Below the pieces are notes generated by a model. It made no database searches, had not been told where the DNA came from, and saw only the letters and a program-made list of their open reading frames with translations. DNA of 64,000 nucleotides from Naegleria gruberi. Lineage: Eukaryota. The stretch is from NCBI GenBank assembly GCA_000004985.1, contig GG738871.1. The stretch is one strand, 5' to 3'. Each line of letters opens with the position of its first letter. The first letter of the stretch is position 1. Of the stretch, positions 10,770 to 51,038 are shown one piece after another. The position numbers were made by a program, and so were the translations under genes.

Positions 10770-13700
10770 TCAATAAAAGACAACGCCAACAACCAACACG
10801 GTTGATATAAGAGCTACATTGCTAAACAGTGATATTGCTGAGGATAGACGTTCAGATCTGGAAGGTTCTGAAAGAGATTTGAGCACTGGAGGAGGTACAG
10901 AACTTGAACTTTTAGGGCTTGCAGATGGTTTGATTCTTTCCTTAATTGAGAGTGGATTCATTGTTTCGAAAGTGGTTGAAATTTGAGTGGAATTGTAATG
11001 CAAAGTTGTTTTGGCTGTTAGTGAACCCTTAGGAATTGAAGAAGGAATATTAAATATCATCTTGGAAAGCAATTCATATTGGAATATTTGGGAGGAAATT
11101 GATTGACCATTCAATAAGAAATCAACATTAATGTCAATTGTCTTATTCTTATAAAAATCAATGAATTGAGAGTCTTGAATGTTGATGGTTAAAGTTGTGG
11201 AGATTTCTCCTACGAAATCATTGGTACTATTGAATGAAATGGTCACGTCTGATTGATTAAAATATCTAAATTGACATTGATTACCAATATAATTTGTTCT
11301 GCATTGACAAGTGTCATAATTAACGCAATCTCCATGTGAATTACACACATTGGAATGATCTACAGATGATAAACCAAAGCAATAGGTCAAATTACATGCC
11401 AACCCATACCATCTACTCTCATCAAGACATTTGCAATTATCAAATGATTGACAAGTTCCATTTCTAAAATTGCAAACTTGTGAGCTAGCTTGTTCTATTC
11501 CAAAACATGATGTGAATTGGCAATCTGATCCATAATAACCATGAACACAATCGCAGCTGTTCACATCTGTGCAATTTCCTTTCCCGCTACATACAGAACT
11601 GTCATTTTGCAATATTCCACTACATTTGACAAGCTCACAATTGCTTCCACCATATCCATCACTGCAAGAACAATAATTTACCGCATCACAAGAACCATGT
11701 GAGCTACAAACTGTTGTAGAATTAAAAGCTACATGATTACATTTCCAATATTGACATTTCTCTCCAAAATAATTCGAATCACAAATACAATTATCAGTTG
11801 ACAAGCAAATTCCATTTCCAGAACATGATCTATTATTCATTTTCTCAATTCCAAAGCATAGTGGATTCTTTGGCTTGCAATCATTAGGTGCATAGCAAAA
11901 TTGGTCTGTATCATTGCATGCATTCGATTCATTGGCAAGAATTCCAAAACAAATTGGAAATTGACAAGTCGTGGCAGGTCCATATCCAGCAGAACAATTA
12001 CAATTATTATACGAAGGGCAAGATCCATGTCCAAAGCAAACATTTGCATTATCTGAAGCTATGGAATTGCAAGTGGTCTTTTCACAATTGGCTCCAAAAT
12101 AATCAGTTGAGCATTTACAATTATTTGGAGTCAAGCATTGACCTTTTGAAGAGCAGACTTGAGTATCATTCGAATATTTTCCATGGCAAATAGGAATTTC
12201 ACATTTAGAACCTATCCATCCAGGGTTACATTGACATGAATCTGGAGAAATACATGTTCCATTTCCATTATTACAAATGGCATTAGTTTGATTCGTAAAA
12301 ATTCCAAAACATTGAATGAGTTCACATTCTGCACCTCCATACCCATTATTGCAGTGACAGGTATCTACATTTGAACATGTACCTCTTCCTTTACATACTG
12401 AACTTGTTTCATTTTGAAGAATTCCAAAACATTTGACAAGTTCACAATTTGATCCTCCATAGTTAGCTTCACATTCACATAAATTCAATGATTTACAAAT
12501 ACCCCTTTTAGAACAAACATGTGTAGTGTTTGTTGACATAATTCCTGCACATTTGAAAATCTGACAATCATTTCCTCCATAACTATTCGAATCATAACAT
12601 TGACAAGTGTCAGGTGATAGACAGTCACCTCTTCCTAAACACTGGCTAGAATTACCGGCTAGAATACCATTACACTTTGGGATTGAACAAAATCTTCCTC
12701 CCCAATGAGTTTCATCATTACATTTGCAAATGTCATCTGCCAAACAATTTCCTCTTCCATTACAAACATTTTCCATGGTCGACAAAGTGCCATTACACTT
12801 CAAGATTTGACAGTCATTACCACCAAATGCATACGTATCGAAACATTGACATTGATTTGGGGAAATGCATTGACCTCTGGAATTGCAAACTGTTGGATCT
12901 GATGCTGATGTCAAATTACATTTTGGAACGTCACATTTCAATCCATTCCATTGAGATTGATCTCTACAGACACATGTATCATGAGATACACAATCACCTC
13001 TTCCTGAACAAACACTGCTTGTTTGATTTGCTATTATTCCAAAACATACTGGAATTTCACATTTCTCACCAACATATCTTGACGTGTTGAAGCATTGACA
13101 GGTATTAAGTGCAATACAAGAGCCATTTCCTGAACAAACTGTTTCATCATTTGCTAAAGTACCATTACATTTTGGAATTTCACAATTTTCACCTCCATAA
13201 TTAGAATTACATTTACAATAATTGTAACGTTCACAAATTCCATTACCATTACATGCAGTAGATGAGTTTGAAAACTTTCCAAAACATGTTGTTACTGTAC
13301 ACTCAGGTCCATAATAATTTTCATTACACATGCATGTATTCACATCAACACATGTTCCATTTCCATGACATGCTAAAAAAGGATATTTGCTTTCAGATGA
13401 TTTCCCATAACATTCAGGAAGACATGTTCTTCCATCACCACTCAACACATAACCAACACCATCACAATATGGATAAACCTTCTTAATCAATCCAGCAACA
13501 TCATCAGCAATATAAATCTCATTCTTATTCTCCCTCACAAAAACATTAAAAGGAGAATCCAAGTAACAATTCACTGGATCAGAATTGTCTGGACATCCAC
13601 TCGAGGAATTTGTACTTCCAGCAATGATTTCCACTTGTCTATTTTGAATCTTTTTAACCTGCTTCAATCCAGGATCAGCAACAAACAATTCATCATGTGC

Positions 13701-14504
13701 TGTGTAATATAATCCCATTGGATTATTCCATGGAGTGGCTGTGAAATTTGCATCATTGAATGGTGGATACTCTGGATAAGGATTCCAATCTGGAGTGCTA
13801 GCACTGAATATGGTGTATGTTTCAGGAAGAACTAATCTCATAATTTTCCCATAATAAATATAGTAAATGTCACCTGTTAGTGGTGATGCAACTATTCCAC
13901 CATCGGTAGGTGATAAACCACAATTAGTGAACCAGTTAAATGAATTATAATTTGCCAAACTATAGTAACCCACGCAATTGTTACCAACATCCATGAAAAG
14001 CAACCAATTGTGAAATTTATCGATGGAAAGCATCTTTCCAAAGTACATGACATCTAGAGGATCCCCTTGTAATAGTTGTTTTTCCATAGTTGAGTGCTCT
14101 TATTTTCATACTAAAATATTCAGATAGGTAGACTTTCTCTTGTGCTTCATCAACAGCAATAAAAGGTTGATCTATAAATCTTTCGTTTCGACTAGTTTAG
14201 AATAGTTTACTTACTGCCAAGAGGAGCCATAAAAACGCTCAAAGTTCCATTAAAAACAGTTCTAATTAATTTAAATAATTAGTAAACTGTGAAAAATCAC
14301 TTACAATATCCTATTTTTGTAATAGTTGTTTTCATTGTTGTGTTCTGCAATGAACATGTCTCCATTGGCCAACACATGTACTGCTCGTGGCATGTTCAAC
14401 GAGCTGACAGCTGTCGTGATTTTGAACTTGACATTTAATGCACTGCACATGCCCAACAAAAGCACGAGGACAAATGCAAATAAAAACGTAAGGTTATTAT
14501 GCAT
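10770..14504 (-). CDS. Large secreted, GPI-like anchored protein. Signal peptide, NHL-repeat beta-propeller region, about 25 tandem tenascin-type EGF modules, then a Ser-rich stalk and a hydrophobic C-terminal tail.
   Basis: Exon 1 (14305..14504) encodes MHNNLTFLFAFVLVLLLGMCSALN (signal peptide) plus an NHL-like GDMFIAEHNNENNYY, and ends at a GTAAGT donor. The main exon (1105-aa ORF 10770..14087) has NHL-like repeats, then 31-aa C.G.C....C.C...Y.G..C modules. The C-terminus ...PSRSERLSSAISLFSNVALISTVLVVGVVFY looks like a GPI signal. The exact exon-2 acceptor is not resolved. Confidence 0.7.
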
Positions 14505-15566: not shown

Positions 15567-15647
15567 GCAGGGGTTCCCGAGTGGTCAAAGGGGGTAGACT
15601 CAAGTTCTACTGCGCAAGCTTCGTGGGTTCAAATCTCACCTTCTGCA
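15567..15647 (+). tRNA. tRNA-Leu (anticodon CAA), type II with a long variable arm
   Basis: Hand-folded. Acceptor GCAGGGG/CTTCTGC with 2 G-T pairs. Anticodon stem GTAGA/TCTAC with loop CTCAAGT. T-arm GTGGG-TTCAAAT-CTCAC. Discriminator A. Followed by GCTTTT (Pol III terminator). Confidence 0.9.
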
Positions 15648-15906: not shown

Positions 15907-18471
15907 TTATTGTTTAGGCATTGTATCACAGTAATCTGTATAGAGTGGTATGTCTTCCTTGAGGCCCTTTCTCTTTCTGATAGATTTGATGAGCTTGTGA
16001 ACTTTAGATTGAGGATCATAAACATTGTCTTCCATAACTTTCCAATGACTGAAACTACATTGAGGGAAAGCTTGTCCTTGAGTCACACCTCTCAACTCTT
16101 CTGTTAAACCGAAACTTTCCAGCACAGGTAAAGAACCTGTAATACTAACGAGAGGAGTACCAATTACCATTTCAGTAGATTTGATAACACCTCTCCTATT
16201 AGAAATGACACTATAGACAGAACCCATTACTGATTGAGGACATTGAACTTCAACAAGATACATTGGTTCAACTAACTTTGGATCAGCTCTCAATTGACTA
16301 GCAGTCATGACACGTGATGTTGCTTGGAGAATTTGACCAGCTCCACGATGGATAGAATCTGCATGAAGATTACAATCATTAAATTTGAATAATACACCTC
16401 TCATTGCTTCATCACACAAACCTCCCGAAGAACTGCTTTGTTGGAAACTAGTGACAACATATTGTTGAATTTCATTAATATAGTCAACTGATTTGGTTGC
16501 ATTAACCAAAATGTTGCTACCCTTGTCAGCTTCAGGCCCAAAGCTCCAAATTCTCTTTGTTATGCTAGGATCCCATTCAAAGTCAATTTCTAAAATCTTG
16601 GCTCTCTTATTTTGATCATCCATTGGCAATTGACCTTCCTTAATCATTTCAATTAATTCCTCACTGATTGGTTCAGCTTGCATGTATAAACGATTGTGAC
16701 CGTTAGCACTTCTGGCCATGACCATATCACCATTCTTATTTGAAACTGTTTCGTGGAAAGTGACAACAGGAGGAGATTTTTTAATTTGAATTCCTCTGGC
16801 ATATTCTTCTTCTAAATTCTTTAAACAAATTTCCAAATGCAATTCACCTGCTGTTCCTAGAATATGTTGACCACTATCATTTTGCTTACATTCCAATAGA
16901 GGATCACTTTGAACGAGACGTTTCAAACCTTCAACAAATCGAGATAAATCAGCTGGATTGGCTGGTTCAACTCCCATTTGAACTACAGGACTCACAGAGT
17001 ATTTCATATTCTTAATTGGCATACATGCAACTTGTCCTTCTTCTGTCAATGTACATGATTTGATAATGTACTTGTCAAGACCAACAATACCGACGATGGC
17101 ACCACAAGAAGCTTGAGTTATGCTTTCAGTATTTTTACCAACCATTACTAACAATCTTTGAATGCTTGTATGGAAAACATCTTTCTTAGCAATTGGATCA
17201 TAGTTAGGACCTAGAATTCTCACCTTAGTTGATTGAGTCAAACTACCAGAGAAAATACGGGCTAAAGCAATAAAACGACCAACATTATTACTCATACTAG
17301 AGCTAGTATTAGAGTGCATAGGTACCATCTTACTGACATAAACAACTAGTGGTGCATTCGGATCACATTCCTTAATACCAGTAGCGTATGGATCTGTCAA
17401 ATCTTCACCGGTGTAGAGATTATCATACCTTACCTTTTGAGCTTCCTTAGGAGAAGGTAAATGGTTGATAATCATTTGAACTAGAGGTTTGTGAGCTGGG
17501 AGGAACTTTCTCATGATTGATTTAGCTAAAAGTTTCGGCTCTTTTCTCTTTTCTTCTTTCGTCAGAGGTATAGACAATGCGCTGATGATATTTTCCAAAT
17601 CTGTTGACAAAATACCTTCACTAGAAATTTCATGTTCTCTAACCAACTTGAAAATCTTGAAAATAGGTTCTAAAATGAATTCACAGAAAGTGTGCTTCAA
17701 TTGTTCACCACTTGTCGATGAATAAGGTTCAGTGGTAAACTTCTTAGTTGAGTGATCATAATAATTTTCACCCCATAATTTGTTAATAACCTTCTCAACA
17801 GGAAGTTTAAACTTCTTGCTATATAATTGAGCGAATTGCTCCAAAGTGAAAGCCCAACCCATCTTACCTGATCCAAAAGCAATGTTACAGTCAACTGGAT
17901 CAACAGAAACTGACTCATCAGAGTAAGTTGATAATAGAGCATTCACAGACTCGATAATTCTTAAAAAGTTTTGATAACTTTCTTCTTCAGTAAATTGCAT
18001 TTCTTCAATCAAACGGTCAACCTTGTTAATGAAGAGAACAGGACGAATTCTTTCTTGAAGAGATTGTCTAATTACTGTTTCAGTTTGACCTCTACAACCT
18101 TCAGCAGCGTCAACAATCAACACTGCACCATCAGTAATTCTCAAAGCTGTACTAACTTCAGATGAGAAATCAATATGACCTGGACAATCGATCAAATTAA
18201 CCAAGTGGTGATCATTCTCCTTGTCTGGATTTTCTAATACCATACTCAAACTTGTTGATTTAATGGTAATACCCTTTTCAATTTCATTCTTATCTACGTC
18301 GCAAACTCTCTTCTCACCTGCAGCATCTTCATCCACTAAACCAGCTGCTAAAGCCAATTGATCAGTGAGTGTTGATTTACCATGATCAACGTGAGCAATA
18401 ATACTAATGTTACGAATCTTGTTACTGTCGAGTAAGAGCCTTTCGAGTATTTCTTTACTGAACTTGACCAT
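15907..18471 (-). CDS. Elongation factor 2 family GTPase. An eEF2 paralog with the diphthamide site conserved.
   Basis: 854 aa. G1 AHVDHGKST, DCPGH, NKVD. The diphthamide region is LHADSIHRGAGQ. It is collinear over its full length with eEF2, but by eye the identity to canonical eEF2 is only moderate. Confidence 0.88.
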   Translation of the reverse strand: MVKFSKEILERLLLDSNKIRNISIIAHVDHGKSTLTDQLALAAGLVDEDAAGEKRVCDVDKNEIEKGITIKSTSLSMVLENPDKENDHHLVNLIDCPGHIDFSSEVSTALRITDGAVLIVDAAEGCRGQTETVIRQSLQERIRPVLFINKVDRLIEEMQFTEEESYQNFLRIIESVNALLSTYSDESVSVDPVDCNIAFGSGKMGWAFTLEQFAQLYSKKFKLPVEKVINKLWGENYYDHSTKKFTTEPYSSTSGEQLKHTFCEFILEPIFKIFKLVREHEISSEGILSTDLENIISALSIPLTKEEKRKEPKLLAKSIMRKFLPAHKPLVQMIINHLPSPKEAQKVRYDNLYTGEDLTDPYATGIKECDPNAPLVVYVSKMVPMHSNTSSSMSNNVGRFIALARIFSGSLTQSTKVRILGPNYDPIAKKDVFHTSIQRLLVMVGKNTESITQASCGAIVGIVGLDKYIIKSCTLTEEGQVACMPIKNMKYSVSPVVQMGVEPANPADLSRFVEGLKRLVQSDPLLECKQNDSGQHILGTAGELHLEICLKNLEEEYARGIQIKKSPPVVTFHETVSNKNGDMVMARSANGHNRLYMQAEPISEELIEMIKEGQLPMDDQNKRAKILEIDFEWDPSITKRIWSFGPEADKGSNILVNATKSVDYINEIQQYVVTSFQQSSSSGGLCDEAMRGVLFKFNDCNLHADSIHRGAGQILQATSRVMTASQLRADPKLVEPMYLVEVQCPQSVMGSVYSVISNRRGVIKSTEMVIGTPLVSITGSLPVLESFGLTEELRGVTQGQAFPQCSFSHWKVMEDNVYDPQSKVHKLIKSIRKRKGLKEDIPLYTDYCDTMPKQ

Positions 18472-19553: not shown

Positions 19554-19607
19554 ATCCAAGCTCTGCAAATAAAGAAATCTGTGAATAATATGGCAAACAA
19601 AACTATC

Positions 19608-19679
19608 CTCCCATGCCGGGAATTGAACCCGGACCTCCTGGGTGAAAGCCAGGTATCCTAGCCATTGGACTACACGGGA
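19608..19679 (-). tRNA. tRNA-Glu (anticodon TTC)
   Basis: The reverse complement reads TCCCGTG TA GTCC AATGGCTA GGAT A CCTGG CTTTCAC CCAGG AGGT CCGGG TTCAATT CCCGG CATGGGA G. All stems pair. It closely resembles eukaryotic tRNA-Glu. A T-run lies downstream on the minus strand. Confidence 0.9.
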
Positions 19680-20159
19680 ATATATTCAACAGGTAAATGT
19701 ACCCTTAATGGACTAAAAGGAAAATGCTGTGAGCAAAAAGATTGCTGCTCTACTTAGTTTTTTTTTCACTTAATGATTTAGACGGGAAGCCTGCCGGGAA
19801 TATGGCGACTGTCCCGCTACAGTCTTTGACTGTATGAACTGTGAGGTACGTCGTCTTTCGAGTCAGTAAGAGAGAGTGATTGGAGGAAGAGGCACTGAGT
19901 AAGTTTATTCATTGATTTTTAAATTGATCACCTAGATAAAAAGTATTTTGGTTAAAAAAATTCATAATTGCTTTGATCTCTATGTTTAACAAGTATTACA
20001 ATCGAATCTAAAGTTACAAGGAAAAGTTTCAGCCACGTTAAAACTCAACTGTTAAATTGATGAACATTGTCTAAACTTTATGAGATAGTCAACAATGAAA
20101 ATAAGCAATATTGGAATTCCACTGAAATGAAGATTATTTACATGTTAGTTTTTTAATAT

Positions 20160-29764: not shown

Positions 29765-30883
29765 TTAATATCTATCCATCAAAAAATACTTTCCCTTGAT
29801 ATTAGAAACTCTCTTCTTGACCTCTTTTTTAATATTGGGATCTTTTATCAATGAAAACGATTCTGGATTGCTGCAAACAGCATAGGTCATTAGTTCAACA
29901 TTGGATAGAAATGATTCGTTCAAAAATTCTAAAACCATTCCATCTTTCTTAATAGCCATTGTTACAATTTCAATATTGTTCTTAATCTTGTCAGATGCAT
30001 ACTGTATAGAAAGTGGTGTATTCGAAATGGCTTCACTCACAACAAGTGGATTTCTTCTGAGCTGTTTCTTCATCTTCTCTAACATGTATCCATCGTGTTT
30101 TACAGTTACGAGGGCTATATCAATATCCTTCTTTAAACTGTCGTCAATGTAGATGTAACAACTTGGACTGATGGACATGGCTTGCAACACAAATTGCTTA
30201 TCCTTTCTAAACTCTTGGTAGGAGTTTTCAAAATGAAATGTATCTCCTTTTTTCATCATTTCTAATATTTGTGATTTTGAGTACATTCTAAACACCATTA
30301 ATCGGGAATAGAGTTTAGGCAAATGTGTAGATGTGTACAATGCAAGAAGGTATAGACCATCTACTGTTAAATAATCAATTCTACTGGTTGATTCATCTTC
30401 GGATTCTTCATCATCACTCAACTCTTCAGCACCAAAGATGGAAACTACAAATTGAACCATATAATCGTTCAATCCAGTAGTCTTTGGAGCAATAAAGTCA
30501 TTCAGATATGGTTCAAACACTTTATAGTTATGGTTGTTCAAATTATCAAAAATCCATCTGAATTGTTCACTTATTAATTGGTTTTTCTCTTTCAAAAGTT
30601 CGGATCCACAATTTCTGTCCAACAGACAAACAACCCCTCCATCACGATCATCAATATTAGCATCAGTAGATTTTCTTTTTAACAAGCTAGTTGGTGATTT
30701 GCAAAAGAAAGAAAAAAAGCAACCGGAAAAATCCTGGCTCTGGTTGAGCATTGAAAGATTAGTGTCGGCATTAGAACGTCCATGATCTGTAGAATTTTGT
30801 GAAGATTCTACGTTGGATTGGCGCTCTGATTGTTTTATCCTCTTGTTGCAACACACAGGTTCCTCCTTCCCTTGTCTTTTCAT
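29765..30883 (-). CDS. Hypothetical 372-aa protein with C-terminal repeats of about 30 aa (DUF4116-like)
   Basis: Repeated ...AL...G..L......L.......A...N motifs in the last 150 aa. The N-terminus is basic and Ser-rich. The assignment is tentative. Confidence 0.35.
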   Translation of the reverse strand: MKRQGKEEPVCCNKRIKQSERQSNVESSQNSTDHGRSNADTNLSMLNQSQDFSGCFFSFFCKSPTSLLKRKSTDANIDDRDGGVVCLLDRNCGSELLKEKNQLISEQFRWIFDNLNNHNYKVFEPYLNDFIAPKTTGLNDYMVQFVVSIFGAEELSDDEESEDESTSRIDYLTVDGLYLLALYTSTHLPKLYSRLMVFRMYSKSQILEMMKKGDTFHFENSYQEFRKDKQFVLQAMSISPSCYIYIDDSLKKDIDIALVTVKHDGYMLEKMKKQLRRNPLVVSEAISNTPLSIQYASDKIKNNIEIVTMAIKKDGMVLEFLNESFLSNVELMTYAVCSNPESFSLIKDPNIKKEVKKRVSNIKGKYFLMDRY

Positions 30884-31996
30884 ATTTTTTTCAAATCAAT
30901 TGCAAACAATAAAACATGTCATTTTTCAACTTCTTTTCACCAAGAAACCAAAAAAATTTGTTCCTATTATTGAATAACACAAAACCAGTAGCAACACCAC
31001 ACCAATGATAAATCAGCTTCTAACTTTTGAGATGTTAATTGCTTCATTTCACTGATGAATTTGATTCCTTCATCACTAATTTGATTGTCAGCAATATCAA
31101 GTAATGTTAATTGTTTCATTTCTCTTATTAATTTGGCTCATTTTTTTACAAATTCGAAATGGGGACTATCAATAATGATTTCGGAAACAATTTTACAAAT
31201 CAAACTTGTGCTTTACAGCCACAAAACCTATCAAGCCATTGATGATGTTTGTATTGATGGCTTCCAATCTTGCTTTGGGCCGTTTCGAAGGACCTTGTGC
31301 AGTTGATTTTTTTATTTTTTCAAAAGTAAAAAAAGCGCGCCACTGCTTCCCTCAAAGGCTTCCATTCTCTCAACAACATGTTATTGTTGTGATGCTTATG
31401 TTGTGGCAATAAGCCTTCTCGGAACTGTAAAGTGGTATTTTAAATAATCGTTGGACGAATGAAAAACTGTAATGGATGGAAGTGAACAGATCAAATCACA
31501 ATCACACAATGAAGAGTTTATCTGTGAAAGAGGGATGGAAAAAGACAAATAGGGTTTGTTGCCTTTTCGCCTCGGTGCACTTTTTCATATGTGACATAGC
31601 CTATCTGCCTTGTAGTACGATGATATTAAAATCACATATGAAGCTTTATTGATTCTCGAGTCACTGCGTAGAGCACTTTATTCAATATATTTACAAGGCA
31701 AGTGGATGATTCATGTTTGATACCAATTGGTTAAGAGCTTGACAATTAGCTAACCACCTTTGAAAAACGTTCAACAATCATCTAAAAGCCTGACACCCTT
31801 AGAGTTTACCAGCTCGGTAATTTGGCTATTTCGGTTAATGCTTATACAAAATTGAAAGTGCCAAAATTAATATGTGAAAAATAATTGGATACCGCTTGCC
31901 AGTTGATTGTGATATGCCAAGTTTGAAGTTTGATTGTTGTCTTGACCCTCCACATTGAAAAAAACAAAACACATAGCACCTTGGTAGTAGATAACA

Positions 31997-34900
31997 ATGA
32001 TGCCAAGATTTTCGGGTTGCACGCTATTAACATTGTTTTTCATTCAAAGTATTGTGTTAATAATACTTTTAACACAAACAACACCAGTTCTCTCATGGTC
32101 CTATAGTATGAGAACTGTAGCTTCAGCACCAGATACTATTACTCAAATTGTTGGTGGTAATCAATTTATTTATGCTGCCTTTGGTTCTGATAATATTGTT
32201 TATTATAACAGAAGTGATTCAACTCAAATTGATGTCGCTACCATGTTGGCTGCTACTAATACTAATGCTGGTTCTACTTTTAAATATGTCGCTTACCATG
32301 GTCAAACTTCTGGAGGAAATGATATCATTTCTGCTGGTACTGTTAGTGGCATCTTTGATAGTGTTGGATTGTATTCATGCGCTATTGATTCACAGAACCT
32401 TCCTGCCTCTTTGACGGCCTTTACTGGCACTTCTCCAACAAAATTATTTGGTGTGAGAGGAAAATCATCTAATTCTCCATCAGATCCTCAATTTTATCTC
32501 ATGACAGATCAAGGAATTATTGAAGCTGATTCATCTAGTTCTTCGCCTGTTGGCTCTGCTTCATTTAGTACTCAAGTTGACTTGGATTTTAATTCTTCCA
32601 TGGTAAGTTTATTTCTTCTAAAAACGTTGTGATAATCTAATACTTTGATAGATATTTTATTTGGATTCTTCTAGTAATCTTTGGTCGGGTTTGACTAGCA
32701 GTACTAAAGTTATTGGCAGCGGACTTAATTTACCAAGATCTTTGAGCTTTGTTGATACTTTTAATCAAGTAAGTGATGAAATAGTACTCATTTCTCTAAT
32801 TAAATTAGATTTTTATCTCTGATACTGGTAATGGTCGTGTTAAAGTTTTGGATCTATCCTCAAATCAAGTTACCACCATTGCCGGAGGTTCTTCAACTCT
32901 TCCACCAAATGACTTTACACTTGTTAGCTCACCAACTAACTATCAAATTACTCCTACTGGTATTTGGGTTGACAAGTCAAATGGATACGTATACATTGCC
33001 GATGGAGCATACATAAGAGTTCTCACACCAACTTGTAACACCATTTCTGAGGATGCCTCTTCTTCATATCCTTTCTGTGTCTGCAAATCAGGCTATATTC
33101 TCCAAGATGGGGTTTGTGTTGTTAACAACTGTTTGACATGTAACTCAAATCAAACTTGCGTATCAAATGCCTGTGTCTGTAAAAATGGTTATTCTGGAGC
33201 TTTATGTTCTGAATACAAGTGTTTTGGTACCCCTAAAGATAATGTTGGAGTATGTAGTAGTAGAGGTTATTGTACTGCACCAGATAATTGTATCTGTACT
33301 GACTCTATGAAATACTCAGGCGCTTCATGTAATGTTACTACCTGTAATTCCATCCCATCCTATCAATCTAATGTTTGTTCTGGAAAAGGTCAATGTACTG
33401 ATTATAACTTGTGTGTATGTACCAACACAACTGAATACGGAGGAGTAAATTGTGAATATTTCAAATGTAATGGACTCAATTCAAATGATGGAAACGTATG
33501 CAGTAAGAACGGCACTTGTGTTGGAATTAATTCATGTTCATGCAATTCAAATTATGCTGGTAACAACTGCCAGTACCCTAAGTGTAACGGAATCCCATCA
33601 ACTGATACTAATAATGTTTGTAATAAGAATGGTACCTGTGTTGCTGTTGATACCTGCAACTGTAATGTTAATTACACTGGTCAATTCTGTCAATATCCAA
33701 AATGTAATGGTACAGCTTCAAACGATGCAAGTGTTTGTAACTCCAATGGTGTTTGTAGTGGTGTTAATAATTGTGTCTGTAATTCAAATTATACTGGCCA
33801 ATACTGTCAATTCCCTAAGTGTAACGGAATTGGCTCAAATGATATTAATGTTTGCTCAAAGAACGGTACCTGTGTTGCTGTTAATACTTGTAATTGTAAT
33901 GTTAATTATACTGGACCATATTGTCAGTATCCAAAATGTAATGGCACGGCTTCAAATGATATTAATGTGTGCAGTAAGAATGGTAATTGTATCGCTCCAA
34001 ATGTTTGTTCATGTAATTCAAGCTTTTCTGGCCAATTCTGTCAATATCCAAAATGTAATGGAATCCCATCAACTGATACTAATAATGTTTGTAATAAGAA
34101 TGGTACCTGTGTTGCTGTTGATACCTGCAACTGTAATGTTAATTACACAGGTCAATTCTGTCAATATCCAAAGTGTAATGGTACAGCTTCAAATGATATT
34201 AATGTGTGCAGTAAGAATGGTAATTGTATCGCTCCAAATGTTTGTTCATGTAATTCAAGCTACACTGGTCAATTCTGTCAATATCCAAAATGTAATGGCA
34301 TTCCATCAAACGATGCTAGTGTTTGTAATTCAAATGGTACCTGTATTGGTGTTAATACTTGTAATTGTAATGCTAATTATACTGGTCAATTCTGTCAATA
34401 TCCAAAATGTAATGGTACTAGCTTCTAATGATACTAATGTTTGCAGTAAGAAGGTGGTAATTGTATTGCACCAAATGTTTGTTCATGTAATTCAAGCTAC
34501 ACTGGACAATTCTGTCAATTCCCAAAGTGTAATGGTATTGGATCCAATGATGGAAGTGTTTGTAATGCAAATGGTACTTGTATTGGAATTAACATTTGTT
34601 CTTGCAATTCGAATTATGCTGGACAATTCTGTCAATATCCAAAATGTAATAGTATTGCTTCGAATAGTGGCAGTGTTTGTAATTCACAAGGATCATGTGT
34701 TGCACCAAATGTTTGTGTCTGTAATTCAAATTATACTGGCACTTATTGTGACAAACCAAGATGTGGCATCTATTATAAGGGTGATGCTTCTGCTTGTAAT
34801 TCGAGAGGTAGTTGTGATGCTGTTGATAGTTGTACTTGTAGTGATACATCTTCTTGGGGTGGCAATTTGTGTCAATATCCAAAATGTAATGCTGTTCTTT

Positions 34901-37017
34901 CAAATGTTGGAACTGTTTGTAGCAGTAGAGGAACTTGTCAATCTCCAAACAATTGTTCATGCACTGATCCAAGTTCATATGGTGGTTCATATTGTGAAAA
35001 AGCAAAATGTTATGGAATTCTTCAAGGAGATTCAAATGTTTGCAGTGGGCATGGTACTTGCAGTGGTGTGAATCAATGTTCATGCAGTGCTGGATATGGA
35101 GGTGAACAATGTCAATATCCAAAATGTTTCACTATTTTGAGTAATGAAACAACAGTTTGTAACAATAGAAACGGTACATGTACTGCACCTGATACTTGTT
35201 CATGTAACAACGGATGGACTGGAAGCAAGTGTGATGTTGCCATTTGTTTTTCAATTCTCTCCAATTCAACAAAGGTTTGTTCAAACAAGAGAGGTAGTTG
35301 TGTCACACCAGATAATTGTGTTTGTAAAAGTCAATATTCAGGTTCTCAATGTGAATATACCACTTGTTCTGGAATAAGATCAGATCAAACATCGACAGTA
35401 TGTTATGGAAATGGTCAATGTATTGATTATAATACTTGTAATTGTACAACTGGTTATGGACCATCCAATGTATGTCAATATCCAATTTGTGGTGGCTATT
35501 TGGCAAATGATACAAGAGTTTGTAACAATTCAAGAGGTGTATGTTTGAGACCAAATGAATGTAGACCATTAGATCCCGTATGTTATGGTAAAGCTCAGAA
35601 TAATTCAATGGTTTGTAGTGGACATGGTTCATGTATCGATTGGGATTATTGTGAATGTAAAACTGGTTTCAATGGAAATGAATGTCAAAATTGGGAATGT
35701 TATGGAAAGAATTATACCAACTCAAATGTTTGTAACAATGGAAATGGTACCTGCTCATCTGTGAATAATTGTGTTTGTAACAGTGGATGGTATGGAAATG
35801 AATGTACAGTTCCAATGTGTAATGGAATTCTTGCAAATTCATCCCTAGTTTGTAACAATGGAAATGGTACCTGCTCCAAACCAGGTGCATGCCAATGTAA
35901 TACTGGATACACAGGATCTGACTGTTCCATTCCAATTTGTTATGGCAAATTAGGCACTGATACAAGTAATGTTTGTTCAGGAAGAGCAGACTGTATTGGT
36001 TATAACAAGTGTAATTGTGACACTTCCAAGTATAGTGGTTCACAATGTGAATATTTCAAATGTTTTGGTATTCCGTCAAATGATGCTTCAGTTTGCAGCA
36101 GAAACGGAACATGTTCAGGTGTGAATCAATGTTCTTGTAATTATGGTTATGGTTCTTCAAATTGTGACATTTTCACATGTTCAAATGTTCTTGCCACCAA
36201 TTCAAGTGTTTGCAGTGGAAAGGGTGTATGTTATGGAATTGACAAGTGTTCATGTGATTCAGGATATTTTGGATCAAATTGTGAAATTATCTCCTGTTAT
36301 GGAATTCCAAAGTCCAACAATACTGTATGTGGTGGAGTTGGTGAATGTTCACAACTTGATACATGTGTTTGTGGAAGCGGTTATAGAGGCTCAATGTGTG
36401 AATTATCTTACACCTCTTCATCTCAAGCAACACTTCAATTCAACAATACGAATGAATATGTGAATGAACAATTCACAAGCATGGTCACTTTGACAATTAA
36501 TAATCCACTCTTCGGCCAATATTATTTGAGAAGAAGTGTTCAAGTTGTTGTTTCATTTGAAATTAATTCACAATTCAGTTATTCTGAAACACTTTATATT
36601 GAAAATGGAGTTTCATCTGTTTCATTAATGGTGAAATCGTTGAGTCAAACTGGTACATTGAAAGCATCTGCTCAATTAATTGATAATAGCACATTGATTT
36701 CCATTTCAGATAGTATTCAATCTTCAAATAGCATTACAATTCAAAATAGACCTATTGTTGTTCCATCTACAAAGACATCCACAACCAAACCAACAACCTC
36801 TGCACAAACAAGTAGAGCTGTTATCGATACAGGAAGTAATGCAGGAGCCATTGCAGCTGGTGTTATTGTTCCAGTGGCAGTTATTGGAATTGGAGGTGGT
36901 GTCACTGCAGCCATTGTCACAGCAGTTGTTTTATTAAAGAAGAAGGCTGCTGCAGCTGCTGCCGCAGAAATTTCCCATGCTCAACACGTCAATGTTGAAC
37001 TTGTTGAAGGTTTCTAA
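31997..37017 (+). CDS. Large type-I membrane protein. Signal peptide, NHL-repeat region, about 38 tandem tenascin-type EGF modules, stalk, TM helix and a short poly-Ala/Lys tail. Exons 31997..32602, 32652..32768 and 32809..37017. There is an internal +1/+2 compensated frameshift at about 34420-34460.
   Basis: Signal peptide MMPRFSGCTLLTLFFIQSIVLIILLTQT. NHL-like ISDTGNGRVKVLD. The introns are GTAAGT..AG and were verified by hand. The EGF module is C.G..C....C.C...Y.G..C repeated. The C-terminus reads AGVIVPVAVIGIGGGVTAAIVTAVVLLKKKAAAAAAA. This is a paralog of the minus-strand gene at 10770..14504. Confidence 0.75.
33480..34560. repeat. Array of near-identical 93-nt EGF-module coding repeats. 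Stretches of about 89 nt are 100% identical, for example 33590-33678 and 34062-34150.
   Basis: Read directly. Long exact DNA repeats lie inside the CDS, consistent with recent duplication or gene conversion. This is a likely hotspot for assembly collapse. Confidence 0.8.
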
Positions 37018-37398
37018 TAAATCAAACTTTTCATCAGCTCTCTCAATAATTTATTTCTACCTTGCTCAATTCTTTCCACTATGTGCAACAATGGCAAATT
37101 GCCACAATAGAACATTGTAAAGAGATATGAAGATTCATATCTTCCACTAATCAACAACCAACAAACAAACTTAAAGACAATTTTACAATGCAAATCAAAT
37201 ACATACCCAAATCGAACCTTCTAGTAACTTTTCGCTTAACGAACTGTAACATGCATTAGCAAATTACTTCCACACTAGATATCGGCCAAACCAAATCGAC
37301 ATTTACCAAGTTGATAATTGACAAGATCATCTTCTACTCTGGGATCTGTTAAATACATGCTCTCTTGTGGAACATACATTACTTCATAACATAAAAAA

Positions 37399-39037
37399 AT
37401 GGTTTCGTCTACTAAGCAATTAACTATTGTTCTGACATTATTGTTTGCTTTTGCAATCATTAACATTTCACATGCTGCTGTTTATCAAGTGAAAGATGCT
37501 GTTACTTTGTGGAGTACTTTTGGTAAGCTCCAAGCTGGTAAGTTTCTAATAACAATGTTTGAATCAAATTAACAACCTCTTTGCATGTAATCGTGTCCGT
37601 TGGCATGTCAAAAACCTATTCGAAACTTGAATAGGTGACGAAATGATCATTAGACAAGGAACCTATTCCACATCCACAGGTGGATCTTACTATAGACAAT
37701 TCACATTGAGAGGTACATCCGCATTACCAATCAAAGTTTATGCTTGGAAAAACGAAACTGTCGAAATTAAGGGAGACGCAGCTGCCAGTCAAAATATTCT
37801 AAACTTTGATGTTGAATATTTTGTCATGGATAATCTTGGTTTCTCTCAAGGAAGTCGTGGTTTAAGATTTTTAAATTCGAAACATTCAGTTTATTCGAAT
37901 CTGAGAGTTAAAAACACTGGTGATGTTGGTATCTCCATGAATGATGGAAATGCGCTTTATCAAAACAATACATTCAGATATAATGAAGTTTCGTATACTA
38001 GAGGAACTGGTGAATGTTTCTATTTGGGTTGTAATAATGCTGGATGCAAGTTTATTTTCAATTTATTGGAAAATAACTATTGTCATCACACAAGCACTGC
38101 AGCCCAAGGAGATGGTATTGAAATCAAGACTGGAAGTTATGGAAATGTTGTTCGAAACAATGTCATTCATGATGGAAACTATCCTGGTATTACCTTATAT
38201 AGTACTTATTACAATGGTGTAGATAAGGATATTGGCATTGCTAATCCAAATATTATTGAAGGAAATATCATTTGGACTGTCAAAGACAATGGCATACAAG
38301 TGACAGGTAATGCCATTATAAGAAATAACATTATTTACAATGCAGGTGCAAGTGGAATTGCCATTCAAACCAATCAAGGAATTGTCGAAAATGTCAAAGT
38401 ATTGCACAATACAGTTGTCAAAGCAGGTGCTGCTTGTATTAGAGTGACAAATTCAGGTCCAGGAATTTTGATTGCAAATAATGCTGCCTATTGTGAAACA
38501 ACAAGTTCCGTTTATATTGCCTCAGCATTGCCTGCTGATGGAATTATCTCAAGAAATGTCATTCAGGGCTCGACTAATGTTCAAGTTGTGAATGGAACTC
38601 TCAATATTGGTAAATTCACAACTGATTTCCAAGGGAGTAGCGCCTTGCCATATAATGTGTTCCCAGTTGTTTCCAGTAATGTGCTTGGAAAGGCAGATTC
38701 AAAGTATGCTACCACTTATGATTTCAATTTTAATACTAGAAATGGGCCAACTTATGATTGTGGTGCTTATCAAGCTAATGGAGCTACTTCAAATCCTGGT
38801 TGGATTCCAACAACTGGTTTTAAGAATACTAATGCTCCAACTCCAGTCAATCCTGTAACTCCTGGTGCTTCAAAGACTCCAACTCCAGTCAATCCAGGCA
38901 CTTCAAAGACAACACCAACCAATCCAGCAAATAGTCCAACTGCAGTTAATTCAAACAAGAGAGTTAACAATGCGAATGTTTTGATGCAAAGTATTGCTGC
39001 CATGATTGTTGGTTTGCTTGTATTCATTGCTATTTAA
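37399..39037 (+). CDS. Secreted right-handed parallel beta-helix (PbH1/pectin-lyase-fold) repeat protein with a Pro/Thr-rich linker and a GPI-like C-terminus. Exons 37399..37537 and 37635..39037.
   Basis: Exon 1 reads MVSSTKQLTIVLTLLFAFAIINISHA (signal peptide). The intron has a GTAAGT donor and ATAG acceptor. The body has repeated NN.I.D.G..GI / GN.I.NN.I.N motifs. The end reads ...NVLMQSIAAMIVGLLVFIAI. Confidence 0.65.
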
Positions 39038-39228
39038 ATAAATTTAGTATTATTTAAAAGTCCTCATCCTCACTTCGTTAATGAAAAAGATGATTCACTA
39101 TTAAATATTAATATTTAATTATCCTAAAATCGTTACATCTATTGATGTTATTGAATAATAATTAATGATGGCAATTTTAATACATTTTCAATTTTATTAG
39201 AATAAACCTTAATAAGTTTTAGTCAAGT

Positions 39229-40956
39229 TTAAAAATCTCTTTCAACAAAATCCAAATTTCTCAACAATAACAATTCTTCTCTCTTCAACTCTGGAATGTT
39301 CAATTTGCTGACTGCTGATGAATATTCAGCCAACTTTTCGTGATTAATCTTTTGTTCCTTGCAATAATTAACCAAGAGATCATAGAAAAGAGGTAAATAT
39401 CTACCACTAGCTCCGTATTGTTCAGTGTGTAATTCAATGGCATTATCCAACAATGAAATAACTTCTTCTGTAGAGGCCTTTTCACCCAAAATTAAAACTT
39501 CAGCTTCTCTTCTTAACAGAGATGAATATGAAGGTGAGAAGTAACCATTATTGAATTGAAGCTCCTTAGATTGAGTAATATAATTCAAAGCAGCATCTAA
39601 TTGACCTCTAGAAATGAAAAGATCAACAAGATAATTGTTAACGAATTGTTTGACTTGAGGTGTTGTTTCTGGATTATCAATCTTGATCATCTTCATGTAT
39701 GAGTGTATATCTTGAGCAGCATTACGCTTCTTGGTGGCATAAAGAGTGTGATTGAGTAAGATGGTAGAAATTTGTTGAAGGTCCTTTGAGACAGTTGGGA
39801 AGTTTCTGGCAATTTGTTGTAAAGATTCAACATAGAGCTTACTGGCTTCATCTAATTGTTTACCTTGAACAGTCAAAATGGAAGCCTTGGAAAGCTTGTA
39901 CATGACACTGGAAAGAGAACCCAATAATTTAGCATCACGAAGTCTACTATCCAACCAAGAAACCATAGAATCAGCTGAACCTTCATTCTTGATAGAAATA
40001 TTGTATAAAACTTGAACAAGTGTAAGTTGAGTTTCAACTTCTAATCTATCCAATTGGTTTTCAATCTTCTTATTGATTGGTTCAACACCGAAATATTTAT
40101 CAAATTCTGGGACTTTTCTTCCAACAACTGGTACTCTAATATCTTGTTCTTGTTCCAATTCATAAATCTTATTAACAACTTCTTCAATAGTATCTTTAGA
40201 TTTCAGCTTCTTTTGATTTTCCTTGTATTCTTCCAAAGAAATACCAATAGTAGCAGCTTCCTTTTCCTCTCGATCGACTTCTTGTTGTCTCTTTTCGTAG
40301 AAAACTTTCATTTCAGAAATCTTGTTCAATAATTCTTCACAAGCAACTTTAGCAACTTCATAATCACCCAAACCAATAGCAGCTCTGATTTTAGATTTGT
40401 GAACAGCAAGTGAATAATACAATGGGAAGTTGTGGCTCTTTCCGAAATGTTCCTCTCCTACTAAAACATTGAAAAAGTTGTCGGCCTTTTCACCAATGAG
40501 TAATGGTTGGACCAACTTGAACAAACCATTATCAAGAGTAAGTTGTTGAATAGCAAGAACCCATTTTAAGAAGAGGGAGAAACGGGAGTTTAACTTGCTG
40601 ATATACTCTGCATCATAGGTGATGTTTGTTTCGGTGGTAATTTGTTCAATTTGTTGTTGGAAGGCAGCAATTTCGTTTTGAACGTGAGTTTGAATAGAGT
40701 AAAGATAGTAGAGTTGTTCTCTAGTTTTATCGGTGGTTCTCTTTTCCAAAGGTTCAACTTTCATTGCACTTAATTCATTAATTAAATCACCCAAGGACTT
40801 GCTACTAAAATCCAAATTTTGTTTAGCGTCCAAACAACGGAATTGTTGATGGAATGGACGAACATCAAGAGCGGAAACAACAAGTCTATTGAAAGCAACT
40901 TGTTGAGAACGCGACTTGGATAAGCATCGTGGGGTAGCGAAAAAGAGTTTTTTCAT
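39229..40956 (-). CDS. Hypothetical 575-aa helical protein, possibly mitochondrially targeted (Arg/Ser-rich N-terminus)
   Basis: ORF only, with no recognisable catalytic motif. Confidence 0.4.
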   Translation of the reverse strand: MKKLFFATPRCLSKSRSQQVAFNRLVVSALDVRPFHQQFRCLDAKQNLDFSSKSLGDLINELSAMKVEPLEKRTTDKTREQLYYLYSIQTHVQNEIAAFQQQIEQITTETNITYDAEYISKLNSRFSLFLKWVLAIQQLTLDNGLFKLVQPLLIGEKADNFFNVLVGEEHFGKSHNFPLYYSLAVHKSKIRAAIGLGDYEVAKVACEELLNKISEMKVFYEKRQQEVDREEKEAATIGISLEEYKENQKKLKSKDTIEEVVNKIYELEQEQDIRVPVVGRKVPEFDKYFGVEPINKKIENQLDRLEVETQLTLVQVLYNISIKNEGSADSMVSWLDSRLRDAKLLGSLSSVMYKLSKASILTVQGKQLDEASKLYVESLQQIARNFPTVSKDLQQISTILLNHTLYATKKRNAAQDIHSYMKMIKIDNPETTPQVKQFVNNYLVDLFISRGQLDAALNYITQSKELQFNNGYFSPSYSSLLRREAEVLILGEKASTEEVISLLDNAIELHTEQYGASGRYLPLFYDLLVNYCKEQKINHEKLAEYSSAVSKLNIPELKREELLLLRNLDFVERDF

Positions 40957-41132
40957 TTTTTTTAATTACAAAGAATTTTTATTTTTTTTTTTTAAAATTC
41001 TTTGTTAGTCCTGTTGCTATTCAGTTGTTGGGATTTATTTTCCAATCTAGCTATTTCGATAATTATTTTCCAACTCAATTGATGACAAAAATTTAAAACG
41101 TTTAATTTAAATATTTTTGTTTTCGGAAAGAT

Positions 41133-41567
41133 TTATTGTTTAACGGTTTCTTCAGTGAATTTACCCTTGTTGGCTTGGGTGGTTGTGGATCTAGCTTCAG
41201 CCTTTCTCTTCAACAAGTTCTTTCTATCCTTATCGAGATGGAGCTTAGTGATTTGTACAGTAGATGGCTTGACTGGGACATCGAAAGTCTTTCCACCGAG
41301 CTTATCACCTTGGACACCTTCAACGTAGACAGACCACTTCAATCTGACGACCTTCTTGACCTTACCGACAACACCTCTGAATTTACCCTTCAAGATCTTG
41401 ACTTCATCACCCTTTCTGATTGGGACGGCACGAACGTTATGTTCATCTCTCAACTTCTTGGTGAGAGGAGCACTCATGATGACTCTTCTAACAGAAGATG
41501 GGGCAGTGAAGTGTTGCTTTCTGGCCTTGCTTCTCTTGCTGGAGACAGCGGTGTTAACTTTAACCAT
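41133..41567 (-). CDS. RPL26: 60S ribosomal protein L26 (uL24)
   Basis: 144 aa. SKARKQHFTAPSSVRRVIMSAPLTKKLR...VPIRKGDEV (KOW motif)...DKDRK, collinear with eukaryotic L26. Confidence 0.9.
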   Translation of the reverse strand: MVKVNTAVSSKRSKARKQHFTAPSSVRRVIMSAPLTKKLRDEHNVRAVPIRKGDEVKILKGKFRGVVGKVKKVVRLKWSVYVEGVQGDKLGGKTFDVPVKPSTVQITKLHLDKDRKNLLKRKAEARSTTTQANKGKFTEETVKQ

Positions 41568-49607: not shown

Positions 49608-51038
49608 CTAAAGTGAAGGCATTTGTTGACTGATACAGTGCATTCCTCCTCCACCCATGTTAATAGCTTCAGTTGAAATTGCAACAATTACATGATTTGG
49701 ATATACTCGCTTAAATATTTGAAGAGCTTCTTCATCAGAATCTTTAACGTGTTGGGGAAGACCTTCACGATAATATTTGGAGATGAGAACAGTATTATTA
49801 CTCACTAAGAAATTCAAATAACTCGAGGCAATAATGTACTTGTAAGTTTGGTCATCATGCATAACAAGTCCATCTTCAAATTCCAATTCCTGTAATGTAT
49901 CGAAACAGGAGTCACCCTTCTTGAGATCCATAACAATGTGTGGTCCAACTGGAACTTTGATAATTTCGAATGGTTCTCCTTTGAGATTGGTTTGCTTTTT
50001 GAGGAGTTCATAGTTTTGCTCGAGTCTCTTTCTATTCTCAACAGAGATACAATCATTCAAGTGAACTGGTACATAGGCAAGGAGAATGGTATTCTCAGTG
50101 GCAAATCTAGCCCACTCGTCAATGTGTCCTCCAGTACCATAAGATGCCAATAATTCAGTGCCTGGAATGAGTCCTCGATATGAGCATTGATCTTCAACAA
50201 GACCCTCAGTTTCCAACCAGATGATCTTTTCAGCACTTTTACCAAAAACTCTCTTCATTTCATGCTCGATTTGTTCTCTATTTTCAATATTGTTATCCTT
50301 ATTTCTTTGCATTTCAACATGTTCGACCATCATCATGACACCATTTCCATTGTACTCTCTGTCACCACCTTCACTGATGAGGTGAGAACGTACAACTGGA
50401 ATATTTAACTTGTTAGCAACCTTCTATCAANNNNNNNNNNNNNNNNNNNNNNNNNNNNNNNNNNNNNNNNNNNNNNNNNNACGAAATTGGACCATTATCT
50501 CTCATCCACACATCCAAATGTTCGATAATATGATATCTCATTCTCTTTTCAATCAATTCAACAGAAATATTATTTCTTTGTTTTAAAAACTTTTCCACAT
50601 TCATCTTATCTTCCTCTTCATGAATAATCAAATCAATATAAAACTCTGATCCATTCACATTATTATTCAAGAGCAAAGCTTCCATCATTGGAAGTCTATC
50701 ATTCATTAATTCACAAAGAATTCACAACATGATCACTTACTGCACTTGATGGAAAGGACTATATCTGATTGGTTCTTCTGGACAAACCTTGAATGCAAAT
50801 TCATAATTATTCTCCTTTGTGGTTGGGCCTAATTAAAGTGTAAAGTTAGTGTCATTCGGAAGTTGATGATCACTTACCAAGAGCCATCCAAATACTTTCG
50901 TGATGTTCAAATTCACCTATTTTCATAATAGAATTCATTTGTTTCATCATGGAATGTCCACCAAACAGAAAAAAACAATTAAATCTATCGACACATTGAA
51001 AATGTTTGTGGAAACGTACCTGGGAAAACGAAGGACAT
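49608..51038 (-). CDS. Agmatine deiminase (porphyranase-type PAD family). Multi-exon, and interrupted by a 50-N assembly gap.
   Basis: Spliced N-terminus MSFVFPG|EFEHHESIWMALG..., matching EWE.H...W..WP. The middle exon has HLDVWMRDNGPI (W.RD.GP). The C-terminal exon has ...MGGGGMHCISQQMP (catalytic Cys) and YLNFLVSNNTVLI. Donors are GTACGT and GTAAGT. Confidence 0.75.
50431..50480. other. Assembly gap (50 N) inside the agmatine deiminase gene
   Basis: A run of n characters in the sequence. Confidence 1.

What the first reader, a model, noticed from the sequence alone, without database searches (positions are those of the whole stretch)
34415..34465. Compensated double frameshift (+1 then +2 nt within about 45 nt) creating four in-frame stops inside the EGF array
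The reading frame is otherwise continuous from 32848 to 37017. At aatggtacTagcttcTaatgat and agtaagaaGGtggtaat it gains one and then two extra nucleotides relative to the sister modules (aatggtacagcttcaaatgat / agtaagaatggtaat). In between, the frame reads TAA, TGA, TAA and TAA. The net +3 restores the frame exactly. This could be sequencing or assembly error in a repeat, a recently pseudogenised but still nearly intact allele, or a real split into two genes. Because of it, the ORF track shows two separate ORFs, 32848..34428 and 34867..37017, in the same frame.
Basis: seen in the sequence. Interest (0 to 1): 0.5.

Follow-up and report, generated by a model that had tools for sequence, protein, structure and literature searches.

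The report
Two-insertion break in Naegleria EGF gene
An otherwise intact gene for a large EGF-repeat surface protein in the Naegleria gruberi reference genome is broken by two tiny insertions 33 bases apart, which is most likely a sequencing error or a very recent mutation and so is ordinary.

Summary
Compared with three sister EGF modules, the module at 34393-34512 carries one extra T (about 34419) and two extra G (about 34453-34454). In the gene's frame this creates TAA, TGA, TAA and TAA at 34426-34449, and the frame is restored after the second insertion. The window is nuclear DNA of Naegleria gruberi NEG-M, the 2010 Sanger draft. It has ATG at 31997, two GTAAGT...AG introns of 49 and 40 nt, and a stop at 37017. 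With the three bases removed it encodes a 1,642-aa type I membrane protein: signal peptide, degenerate NHL-like domain, about 27 tenascin/teneurin-type EGF modules, one transmembrane helix and a short tail. There is no other defect in 4.9 kb. The repaired module differs from its nearest sister by six synonymous codons and one non-synonymous codon. The lesion is therefore either very young or not real. No plausible intron, recoding signal or second-gene start exists. I found no public protein model for the locus and no independent sequence across the site. My estimate is consensus error about 0.5, real recent frameshift allele about 0.4, anything else under 0.1. Interest is low.

The parts
31997..32602 (+). 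Exon 1 (202 codons). It includes the ATG and a hydrophobic signal-peptide-like N-terminus (31997 to about 32098).
   Evidence: ORF with ATG, followed by a GTAAGT donor at 32603. The spliced CDS is in frame.
32603..32651 (+). Intron 1, 49 nt, GTAAGT...GATAG
   Evidence: Read from the sequence. Boundaries printed. Splicing keeps the frame.
32652..32768 (+). Exon 2 (39 codons)
32769..32808 (+). Intron 2, 40 nt, GTAAGT...ATTAG
32809..37017 (+). Exon 3. It holds the last NHL-like blades, about 27 EGF modules, a stalk, a transmembrane helix (about 36841-36936), a short tail and the stop at 37015-37017. The lesion interrupts it.
   Evidence: Translation. Pfam EGF_2 3e-72, EGF_TEN 3e-60, EGF_Teneurin 2e-54, NHL 0.004. 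Module count.
34393..34512 (+). The affected EGF module, the 11th regular module. It is 120 nt instead of 117.
34419..34419 (+). Extra T (+1) relative to the sister modules. It does not duplicate a neighbouring base.
   Evidence: Alignment A1
34426..34449 (+). Cluster of four in-frame stops (TAA, TGA, TAA, TAA). The sister-homologous reading (frame +1) is open here.
34453..34454 (+). Extra GG (+2) relative to the sister modules. It restores the original frame.
   Evidence: Alignment A1. Repair test.
34159..34275 (+). Nearest sister module. It is 91.7% identical counting the gaps, and differs by 6 synonymous and 1 non-synonymous codons after repair.
33922..34038 (+). Second sister module of the same type

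Best explanation
The lesion has no function of its own. It sits in a single three-exon gene of Naegleria gruberi NEG-M (31997-37017). That gene encodes a 1,642-aa type I membrane protein of the Naegleria NHL-EGF receptor-like family. Two non-templated insertions, T and then GG 33 nt later, lie in the 11th EGF module of the reference sequence. The most likely single cause is a local consensus or base-calling error in the 2010 8x-class Sanger draft. In that case the real gene is intact and is translated normally as one protein. Shown: the indels, the stops, the gene structure, the organism, and the absence of any other defect. Inferred: that the extra bases are not in the DNA of the cell.
For: (1) The organism and assembly are identified. 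Eight window ORFs are exact matches to N. gruberi NEG-M GenBank proteins on one 417,575-bp scaffold. That genome was sequenced by Sanger technology (Table 1 of PMC9928731), and the window carries a 50-N scaffold gap. (2) Removing exactly three bases restores a perfect module with all six cysteines and the conserved motif. (3) There is no other disablement in 1,642 codons. (4) The repaired module differs from its closest sister by 6 synonymous and 1 non-synonymous codons. Within the shifted 33 nt the split is 2 synonymous and 1 conservative change, so protein-level selection acted on this module until very recently or still does. (5) Two indels lie 33 nt apart in an otherwise clean 4.9-kb CDS. 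This clustering is expected in a locally low-quality consensus and is unusual for independent mutations (inference). (6) Neither insertion duplicates an adjacent base or motif. From general knowledge of mutation spectra, spontaneous 1-2 bp insertions are mostly slippage duplications.
Against: No reads, quality values or second copy of this site could be obtained, so the error is not demonstrated. The repeats are too divergent for a collapse misassembly and no assembly gap lies nearby; the nearest N run is 16 kb away. A 2-base insertion is not the commonest Sanger error. NEG-M is reported to be heterozygous (PMC9928731 citing Fritz-Laylin 2010), so a real null allele could have been assembled. 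In a second strain, the last 104 codons of this gene diverge more than the neighbouring genes and mostly non-synonymously. That would fit relaxed constraint.
Confidence: 0.5

Rival explanations
1. The lesion is a real, very recent frameshift allele. A complex mutational event, or two events, inserted T and GG. The allele now ends at TAA 34426. If expressed, it would give a 780-aa secreted fragment (signal peptide, NHL-like domain, 10 EGF modules) without the membrane anchor. It may be heterozygous with an intact allele in the polyploid, clonal NEG-M line, or it may be a newborn unitary pseudogene in a large, redundant receptor family.
For: The bases are in the deposited consensus. The region is contiguous and assembles uniquely. 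Indel polymorphism between N. gruberi-like strains is common: 5 indel sites in 4.5 kb, all non-coding. Heterozygosity is reported for NEG-M. The family has many paralogues (P0121, P0126, P0137, P0255), so losing one copy is tolerable. No protein model for the locus was found in public sets. Divergence in the gene's last 104 codons against the second strain is elevated and mostly non-synonymous: 9/312 nt with 3 non-synonymous and 2 synonymous codons, against 12/1395 and 4/1728 nt in the neighbours.
Against: No second disablement occurs in 855 downstream codons. By rough inference, less than about 0.3% neutral divergence has accumulated since the event. Two indels within 33 nt need a rare complex event. 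The insertions are not slippage-type duplications. The net +3 has no selective explanation, because the shifted stretch contains stops.
Confidence: 0.4
2. The stop-containing stretch is removed as a very short intron or by exon-skipping-like splicing, so the mRNA is in frame.
For: In-frame GT..AG pairs exist, for example 34415-34450 (36 nt) and 34337-34453 (117 nt, exactly one module). This gene's real introns are very short, at 40 and 49 nt.
Against: None of the 29 candidate pairs has the GTAAGT donor seen in the two introns of this gene and in the neighbouring gene's intron at 37538. The stretch is homologous base for base to coding sister modules. The short candidates delete one cysteine and break the six-cysteine pattern.
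Confidence: 0.03
3. The locus is a true split into two genes: an upstream secreted NHL-EGF protein, and a downstream EGF-TM protein expressed on its own.
For: There are two long same-frame ORFs.
Against: The downstream frame reopens in mid-module at 34450. Its first in-frame ATG is 1.16 kb further on at 35608. It has no signal peptide and no intergenic spacer. None of the simple ATG-ORF products is in public protein collections.
Confidence: 0.03
4. Programmed recoding restores the full-length protein, either by a +1 and then a -1 ribosomal frameshift or by RNA-level deletion editing.
For: Only that the net change is +3 and that the intermediate homologous frame is open.
Against: The feature is absent from all sister modules. 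There is no X XXY YYZ heptamer at the second site. There is no stop or known hungry-codon context at the first site (ACT AGC), as read. Frame +1 is open across the whole array anyway, with 3 stops in 600 codons, purely from codon composition. To my knowledge, nuclear insertion/deletion editing is unknown.
Confidence: 0.01

Closest known systems
Frameshift errors in draft (Sanger-era) eukaryotic assemblies
   Same: An isolated small-indel disruption of an otherwise perfect long ORF. Repairing it restores a conserved domain exactly. Similar genome and transcript errors were found and hand-corrected in other heteroloboseans using RNA-seq (bioRxiv 10.64898/2026.08.18.745565).
   Different: Here there are two insertions of 1 and 2 nt outside homopolymers, and no read evidence is available to prove an error.
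Young unitary pseudogenes or null alleles in expanded surface-receptor families
   Same: A single disabling lesion in one member of a multi-paralogue family, with the coding signature still intact.
   Different: Classical pseudogenes show several disablements and relaxed dN/dS. Here only one lesion cluster exists, and module divergence is 6 synonymous to 1 non-synonymous.
Naegleria NHL-EGF receptor-like proteins (N. gruberi P0121 with a 7TM/RGS end, N. gruberi P0126 with a kinase end, N. lovaniensis C9374_014632 = P0157, NAEGRDRAFT_49505 = P0137)
   Same: The EGF arrays are 44-53% identical. NHL blades lie directly before the array, with the same 'IRVL(T/M)PTC' junction. Pfam assigns EGF_2, EGF_TEN and EGF_Teneurin.
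   Different: This protein has only a 26-residue cytoplasmic tail, with no RGS or kinase domain. Its first 220 or so residues have no detectable relatives.
Compensated frameshift mutations that keep a protein functional
   Same: Two nearby indels whose lengths sum to a multiple of three.
   Different: In true compensated frameshifts the shifted stretch stays open in the translated frame. Here it contains four stops, so the second indel cannot rescue translation.

Membership tests
Tenascin/teneurin-type EGF repeat array (Pfam EGF_2, EGF_TEN, EGF_Teneurin) | Profile match above the curated cut-off | tested here: met
   EGF_2 239 bits (cut-off 22.1), EGF_TEN 204 bits (65), EGF_Teneurin 182 bits (24.3)
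Tenascin/teneurin-type EGF repeat array (Pfam EGF_2, EGF_TEN, EGF_Teneurin) | Six regularly spaced cysteines per module of about 39 aa | tested here: met
   25 regular modules match C-x3-5-C-x6-14-C-x4-7-C-x4-7-C-x-C. The repaired module 11 is among them.
NHL-repeat beta-propeller | Pfam NHL match above the gathering score; several blades | tested here: inconclusive
   NHL scores 17.6 bits against a cut-off of 20. BLASTP of residues 227-318 to NHL blades of the paralogues gives E = 1e-5 and 3e-4. The first 220 or so residues show no match.
Spliceosomal intron | GT...AG boundaries with the local donor consensus (GTAAGT), non-coding composition, and removal that keeps the frame and the domain | tested here: not met
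   No GTAAGT donor. The segment aligns to coding sister modules. The short in-frame candidates remove a cysteine.
Programmed ribosomal frameshift site | A slippery sequence or pause codon at the shift site, conserved in homologues | tested here: not met
   No X XXY YYZ heptamer, and no stop or hungry codon at either site (sequence). The extra bases are absent from the sister modules.
Pseudogene (decayed) | Multiple disablements and relaxed constraint | tested here: not met
   One lesion cluster in 1,642 codons. 6 synonymous to 1 non-synonymous codon differences from the sister module. A newborn pseudogene is not excluded.
Sequencing or consensus error | Reads or an independent assembly of the same strain lack the extra bases | not testable with these tools
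   No reads are available. N. gruberi contigs are absent from the look-up of encoding contigs. The only independent contig found (L001) starts at window 36704, 2.2 kb downstream.

The most novel reading that the evidence does not exclude
The three extra bases are really in the genome and the cell still makes the full-length protein. That would require site-specific recoding (a +1 ribosomal frameshift at ACT-A-GCT followed by a -1 shift at AAG-AAG-G) or removal of the bases from the nuclear mRNA.
Probability: 0.01. Interest if true: 0.85.

Novelty: already known. Interest (0 to 1): 0.12.

Why it matters
The practical value is for annotation. A 4.9-kb gene of the Naegleria NHL-EGF receptor-like family appears to have no protein model in the public N. 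gruberi set, probably because of this lesion. If the lesion is an error, three bases of the reference need correcting and a 1,642-aa surface protein should be added. If it is real, NEG-M carries a very young null allele, or a secreted truncated form, of one member of a large adhesion/receptor family. That would be a minor data point on the turnover of such families in a clonal, heterozygous amoeba. Neither outcome changes any general concept.

Tried and rejected
(1) A homology search with the N-terminal 420 aa gave no hit at all.
(2) A homology search with the full repaired protein gave only paralogues at 48% identity or less and no self hit. That search is leaky: it missed P0137, which the exhaustive search later scored at 1e-187.
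(3) The exhaustive representative search with the C-terminal half gave no near-identical hit. A self model could still hide behind a representative at more than 50% identity.
(4) Exact look-ups of 10 simple ATG-to-stop models at the locus found none.
(5) The look-up of encoding contigs found no record for N. gruberi proteins.
(6) Cluster 3 led to an ENA metagenome contig 99% identical to the window. It starts 2.2 kb downstream of the lesion.
(7) A scan of JGI metagenomes with the repaired region found no relative.
(8) The Cell 2010 genome paper is not held, and no paper mentions PRJEB11402.
(9) I enumerated all in-frame GT..AG removals and rejected each as an intron.
(10) I rejected a collapse misassembly because exact repeats are 89 nt or shorter.
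(11) I considered gene conversion from the 120-nt type-A modules as the source of the +3. By eye, the affected module is a type-B module plus T and GG, not a type-A sequence.

Full report
**Observation.** The sequence at 34408-34470 is TGTAATGGTACTAGCTTCTAATGATACTAATGTTTGCAGTAAGAAGGTGGTAATTGTATTGCA. I aligned the 120-nt module at 34393-34512 with the three sister modules of the same type at 33691, 33925 and 34162. There are exactly two gaps: one extra T after GGTAC, and two extra G after AGTAAGAA. In the frame of the flanking ORFs the codons TAA (34426), TGA (34429), TAA (34435) and TAA (34447) follow. The frame reopens at 34450 and runs to 37017. The ORF list shows 32848-34428 and 34867-37017 in the same frame; 34867 is only the first bacterial-type start codon. 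This is the only stop cluster in the 64-kb window flanked by at least 250 open codons on both sides in the same frame.

**What the locus is.**
- The window is eukaryotic, with 32-36% G+C.
- Eight of its ORFs are exact matches to GenBank proteins of Naegleria gruberi NEG-M on one 417,575-bp scaffold. Examples are NAEGRDRAFT_49511 at 29765-30883(-) and NAEGRDRAFT_68235 at 37643-39037(+).
- That genome is a Sanger assembly (Table 1 of PMC9928731).
It has an ATG at 31997 and exon 1 to 32602, then a 49-nt GTAAGT...AG intron. Exon 2 runs 32652-32768 and is followed by a 40-nt GTAAGT...AG intron. Exon 3 runs 32809-37017.
- With the three extra bases removed, the product is 1,642 aa. It has a hydrophobic signal-peptide-like N-terminus and a divergent N-terminal region. 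The last blades of that region resemble NHL repeats: Pfam NHL scores 17.6 bits, below the cut-off, and BLASTP to the NHL blades of paralogues gives 1e-5.
- There are about 27 tenascin/teneurin-type EGF modules. Pfam gives EGF_2 3e-72, EGF_TEN 3e-60 and EGF_Teneurin 2e-54, and 25 modules fit the regular six-cysteine pattern.
- After the array come a Ser/Thr-rich stalk, one transmembrane helix and a 26-residue tail.
- The closest relatives are Naegleria proteins with the same NHL-then-EGF layout. They are N. gruberi P0121 (53% identity in the array, with 7TM and RGS at its end), N. lovaniensis C9374_014632 (51%), NAEGRDRAFT_49505 in this same window (44%), and P0126, which carries a kinase.

**State of the gene.**
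- The lesion lies in the 11th regular EGF module.
- Deleting T and GG restores CQYPKCNGTASNDTNVCSKNGNCIAPNVCSCNSSYTGQF, with every cysteine in register.
- The repaired module differs from its nearest sister (34159-34275) at seven codons, six of them synonymous. Inside the shifted 33 nt there are two synonymous changes and one Ile-to-Thr change. The module therefore evolved as coding sequence until very recently.
- There is no other stop or frameshift in 1,642 codons. The lesion is therefore either extremely young or not present in the organism.

**Explanations rejected.**
- Intron: I enumerated all in-frame GT..AG removals that clear the stops and found 29. None has the GTAAGT donor shared by the three real introns seen nearby. 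The segment is homologous base for base to coding sister modules, and the short candidates remove one cysteine.
- Collapse misassembly: the modules are 67-94% identical and the longest exact repeats are 89 and 76 nt, which Sanger reads resolve easily. The nearest N gap is at 50431-50480.
- Two genes: the downstream frame restarts in mid-module, and the first in-frame ATG is at 35608. There is no signal peptide.
- Recoding: there is no slippery heptamer and no stop or pause context, and the extra bases are absent from the sister modules. The open +1 frame between the indels is not special, because frame +1 has only 3 stops in 600 codons across the whole array, against 94 in frame +2. This is a by-product of the TGT/AAT-rich codon usage.

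**Error or real mutation?** I could not obtain reads or an independent sequence of the site.
- N. gruberi contigs are not held by the look-up of encoding contigs.
- The JGI metagenome scan found nothing.
- One ENA metagenome contig (ERZ929261, k127_509108) is 99.04% identical to window 36704-41186, so a second N. gruberi-like strain has been sequenced. The contig begins 2.2 kb downstream of the lesion.
- In that strain the last 104 codons of the gene are open and end at the same stop. They carry 9 differences in 312 nt (3 non-synonymous and 2 synonymous codons). The two neighbouring genes carry 12 in 1395 nt and 4 in 1728 nt. The sample is too small to settle constraint.

Points in favour of an error:
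- Two indels lie 33 nt apart in an otherwise flawless 4.9-kb CDS.
- Neither insertion duplicates adjacent sequence.
- The assembly is a draft made by Sanger sequencing.

Points in favour of a real allele:
- The region assembles uniquely and is not near a gap.
- NEG-M is reported to be heterozygous.
- Indel polymorphism between strains is frequent in non-coding DNA.
- The gene belongs to a large, redundant family.
- The gene's C-terminal end diverges faster than its neighbours.

I put the error at about 0.5 and a real recent frameshift allele at about 0.4. The net +3 carries little weight either way. The shifted stretch contains stops, so selection cannot have favoured the compensation, and one in three random indel pairs restores the frame.

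**Annotation status.**
- Neither the N-terminal 420 aa (all 4,252 candidates scored, no hit) nor the full repaired protein found a self hit.
- Ten simple ATG-to-stop products of the locus are not in the 15-billion-sequence collection.
- The exhaustive search of cluster representatives gave no near-identical hit.
- One search is leaky, and a representative at more than 50% identity could hide a model. UniProt accession numbering also leaves room for one model (D2VH07) between the flanking genes D2VH06 and D2VH08.
- 'Unannotated' is therefore probable, not proven.

**Verdict.** The explanation is ordinary: either a consensus error or a newborn null allele in a Naegleria NHL-EGF surface-protein gene. 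The decisive test is to map existing NEG-M genomic or RNA-seq reads across 34380-34500. The Kennard et al. 2025 RNA-seq data set is described in the bioRxiv paper read.

Noticed in passing
window 37399-37642: The reference model NAEGRDRAFT_68235 (beta-helix protein, 464 aa, starting at ATG 37643) seems to lack its true first exon. An ATG at 37399 opens a 46-codon signal-peptide-like exon (MVSSTKQLTIVLTLLFAFAIINISHA...). A GTAAGT...ATAG intron follows at 37538-37634 and joins in frame to 37635. The exon is conserved in the ENA strain, with one synonymous change.
   Followed up: partly
L001 1-4490 = window 36704-41186: ENA metagenome assembly ERZ929261 (run ERR1078381, project PRJEB11402) holds a contig 99.04% identical to the NEG-M window, so a second N. 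gruberi-like strain exists in public data. All 5 indel sites between the two are non-coding. The last 312 nt of the EGF gene carry 9 differences in multi-nucleotide clusters (GTT to ACC, CA to GT). The two neighbouring genes carry 12/1395 and 4/1728.
   Followed up: partly
window 15907-18471 (-): The 'elongation factor 2' gene here is a divergent paralogue. It is only 47% identical to the canonical N. gruberi EF2 (Q2MM00) and 59% to another N. gruberi EF2 (P0007). At least four full-length copies at 90% identity or more lie on this and two other scaffolds.
   Followed up: no
window 33452-35071 (+), frame +1 of the EGF gene: A 539-codon ORF lies in the +1 frame of the EGF array. It encodes low-complexity V/I/L/M-rich sequence. 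Frame +1 has 3 stops in 600 codons against 94 in frame +2. This looks like a by-product of the TGT/AAT/GGT-rich codon usage, not a gene. Its product is not in public collections.
   Followed up: yes
window about 35473-35682: There is one irregular stretch in the EGF array (CQYPICGGYLANDTRVCNNSRGVCLRPNECRPLDPV|CYGK...). It lacks the C-x-C and the following first cysteine of a normal module, as if about 15 codons spanning a module boundary had been deleted in frame. Cysteine parity is kept.
   Followed up: no
window 10770-14087 (-): A second EGF-array gene (NAEGRDRAFT_49505, D2VH00, 1105 aa) lies in the same window. Its array is 44% identical to this one, and its ORF is intact.
   Followed up: partly
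window 30884-37642: No public protein model could be found for the 4.9-kb NHL-EGF gene. UniProt accessions of the flanking genes (D2VH06 and D2VH08) leave one number (D2VH07) unaccounted for.
   Followed up: partly
window 50431-50480; 15567-15647 (+); 19607-19680 (-): A 50-N scaffold gap, and two tRNA genes: Leu-CAA and Glu-TTC.
   Followed up: no
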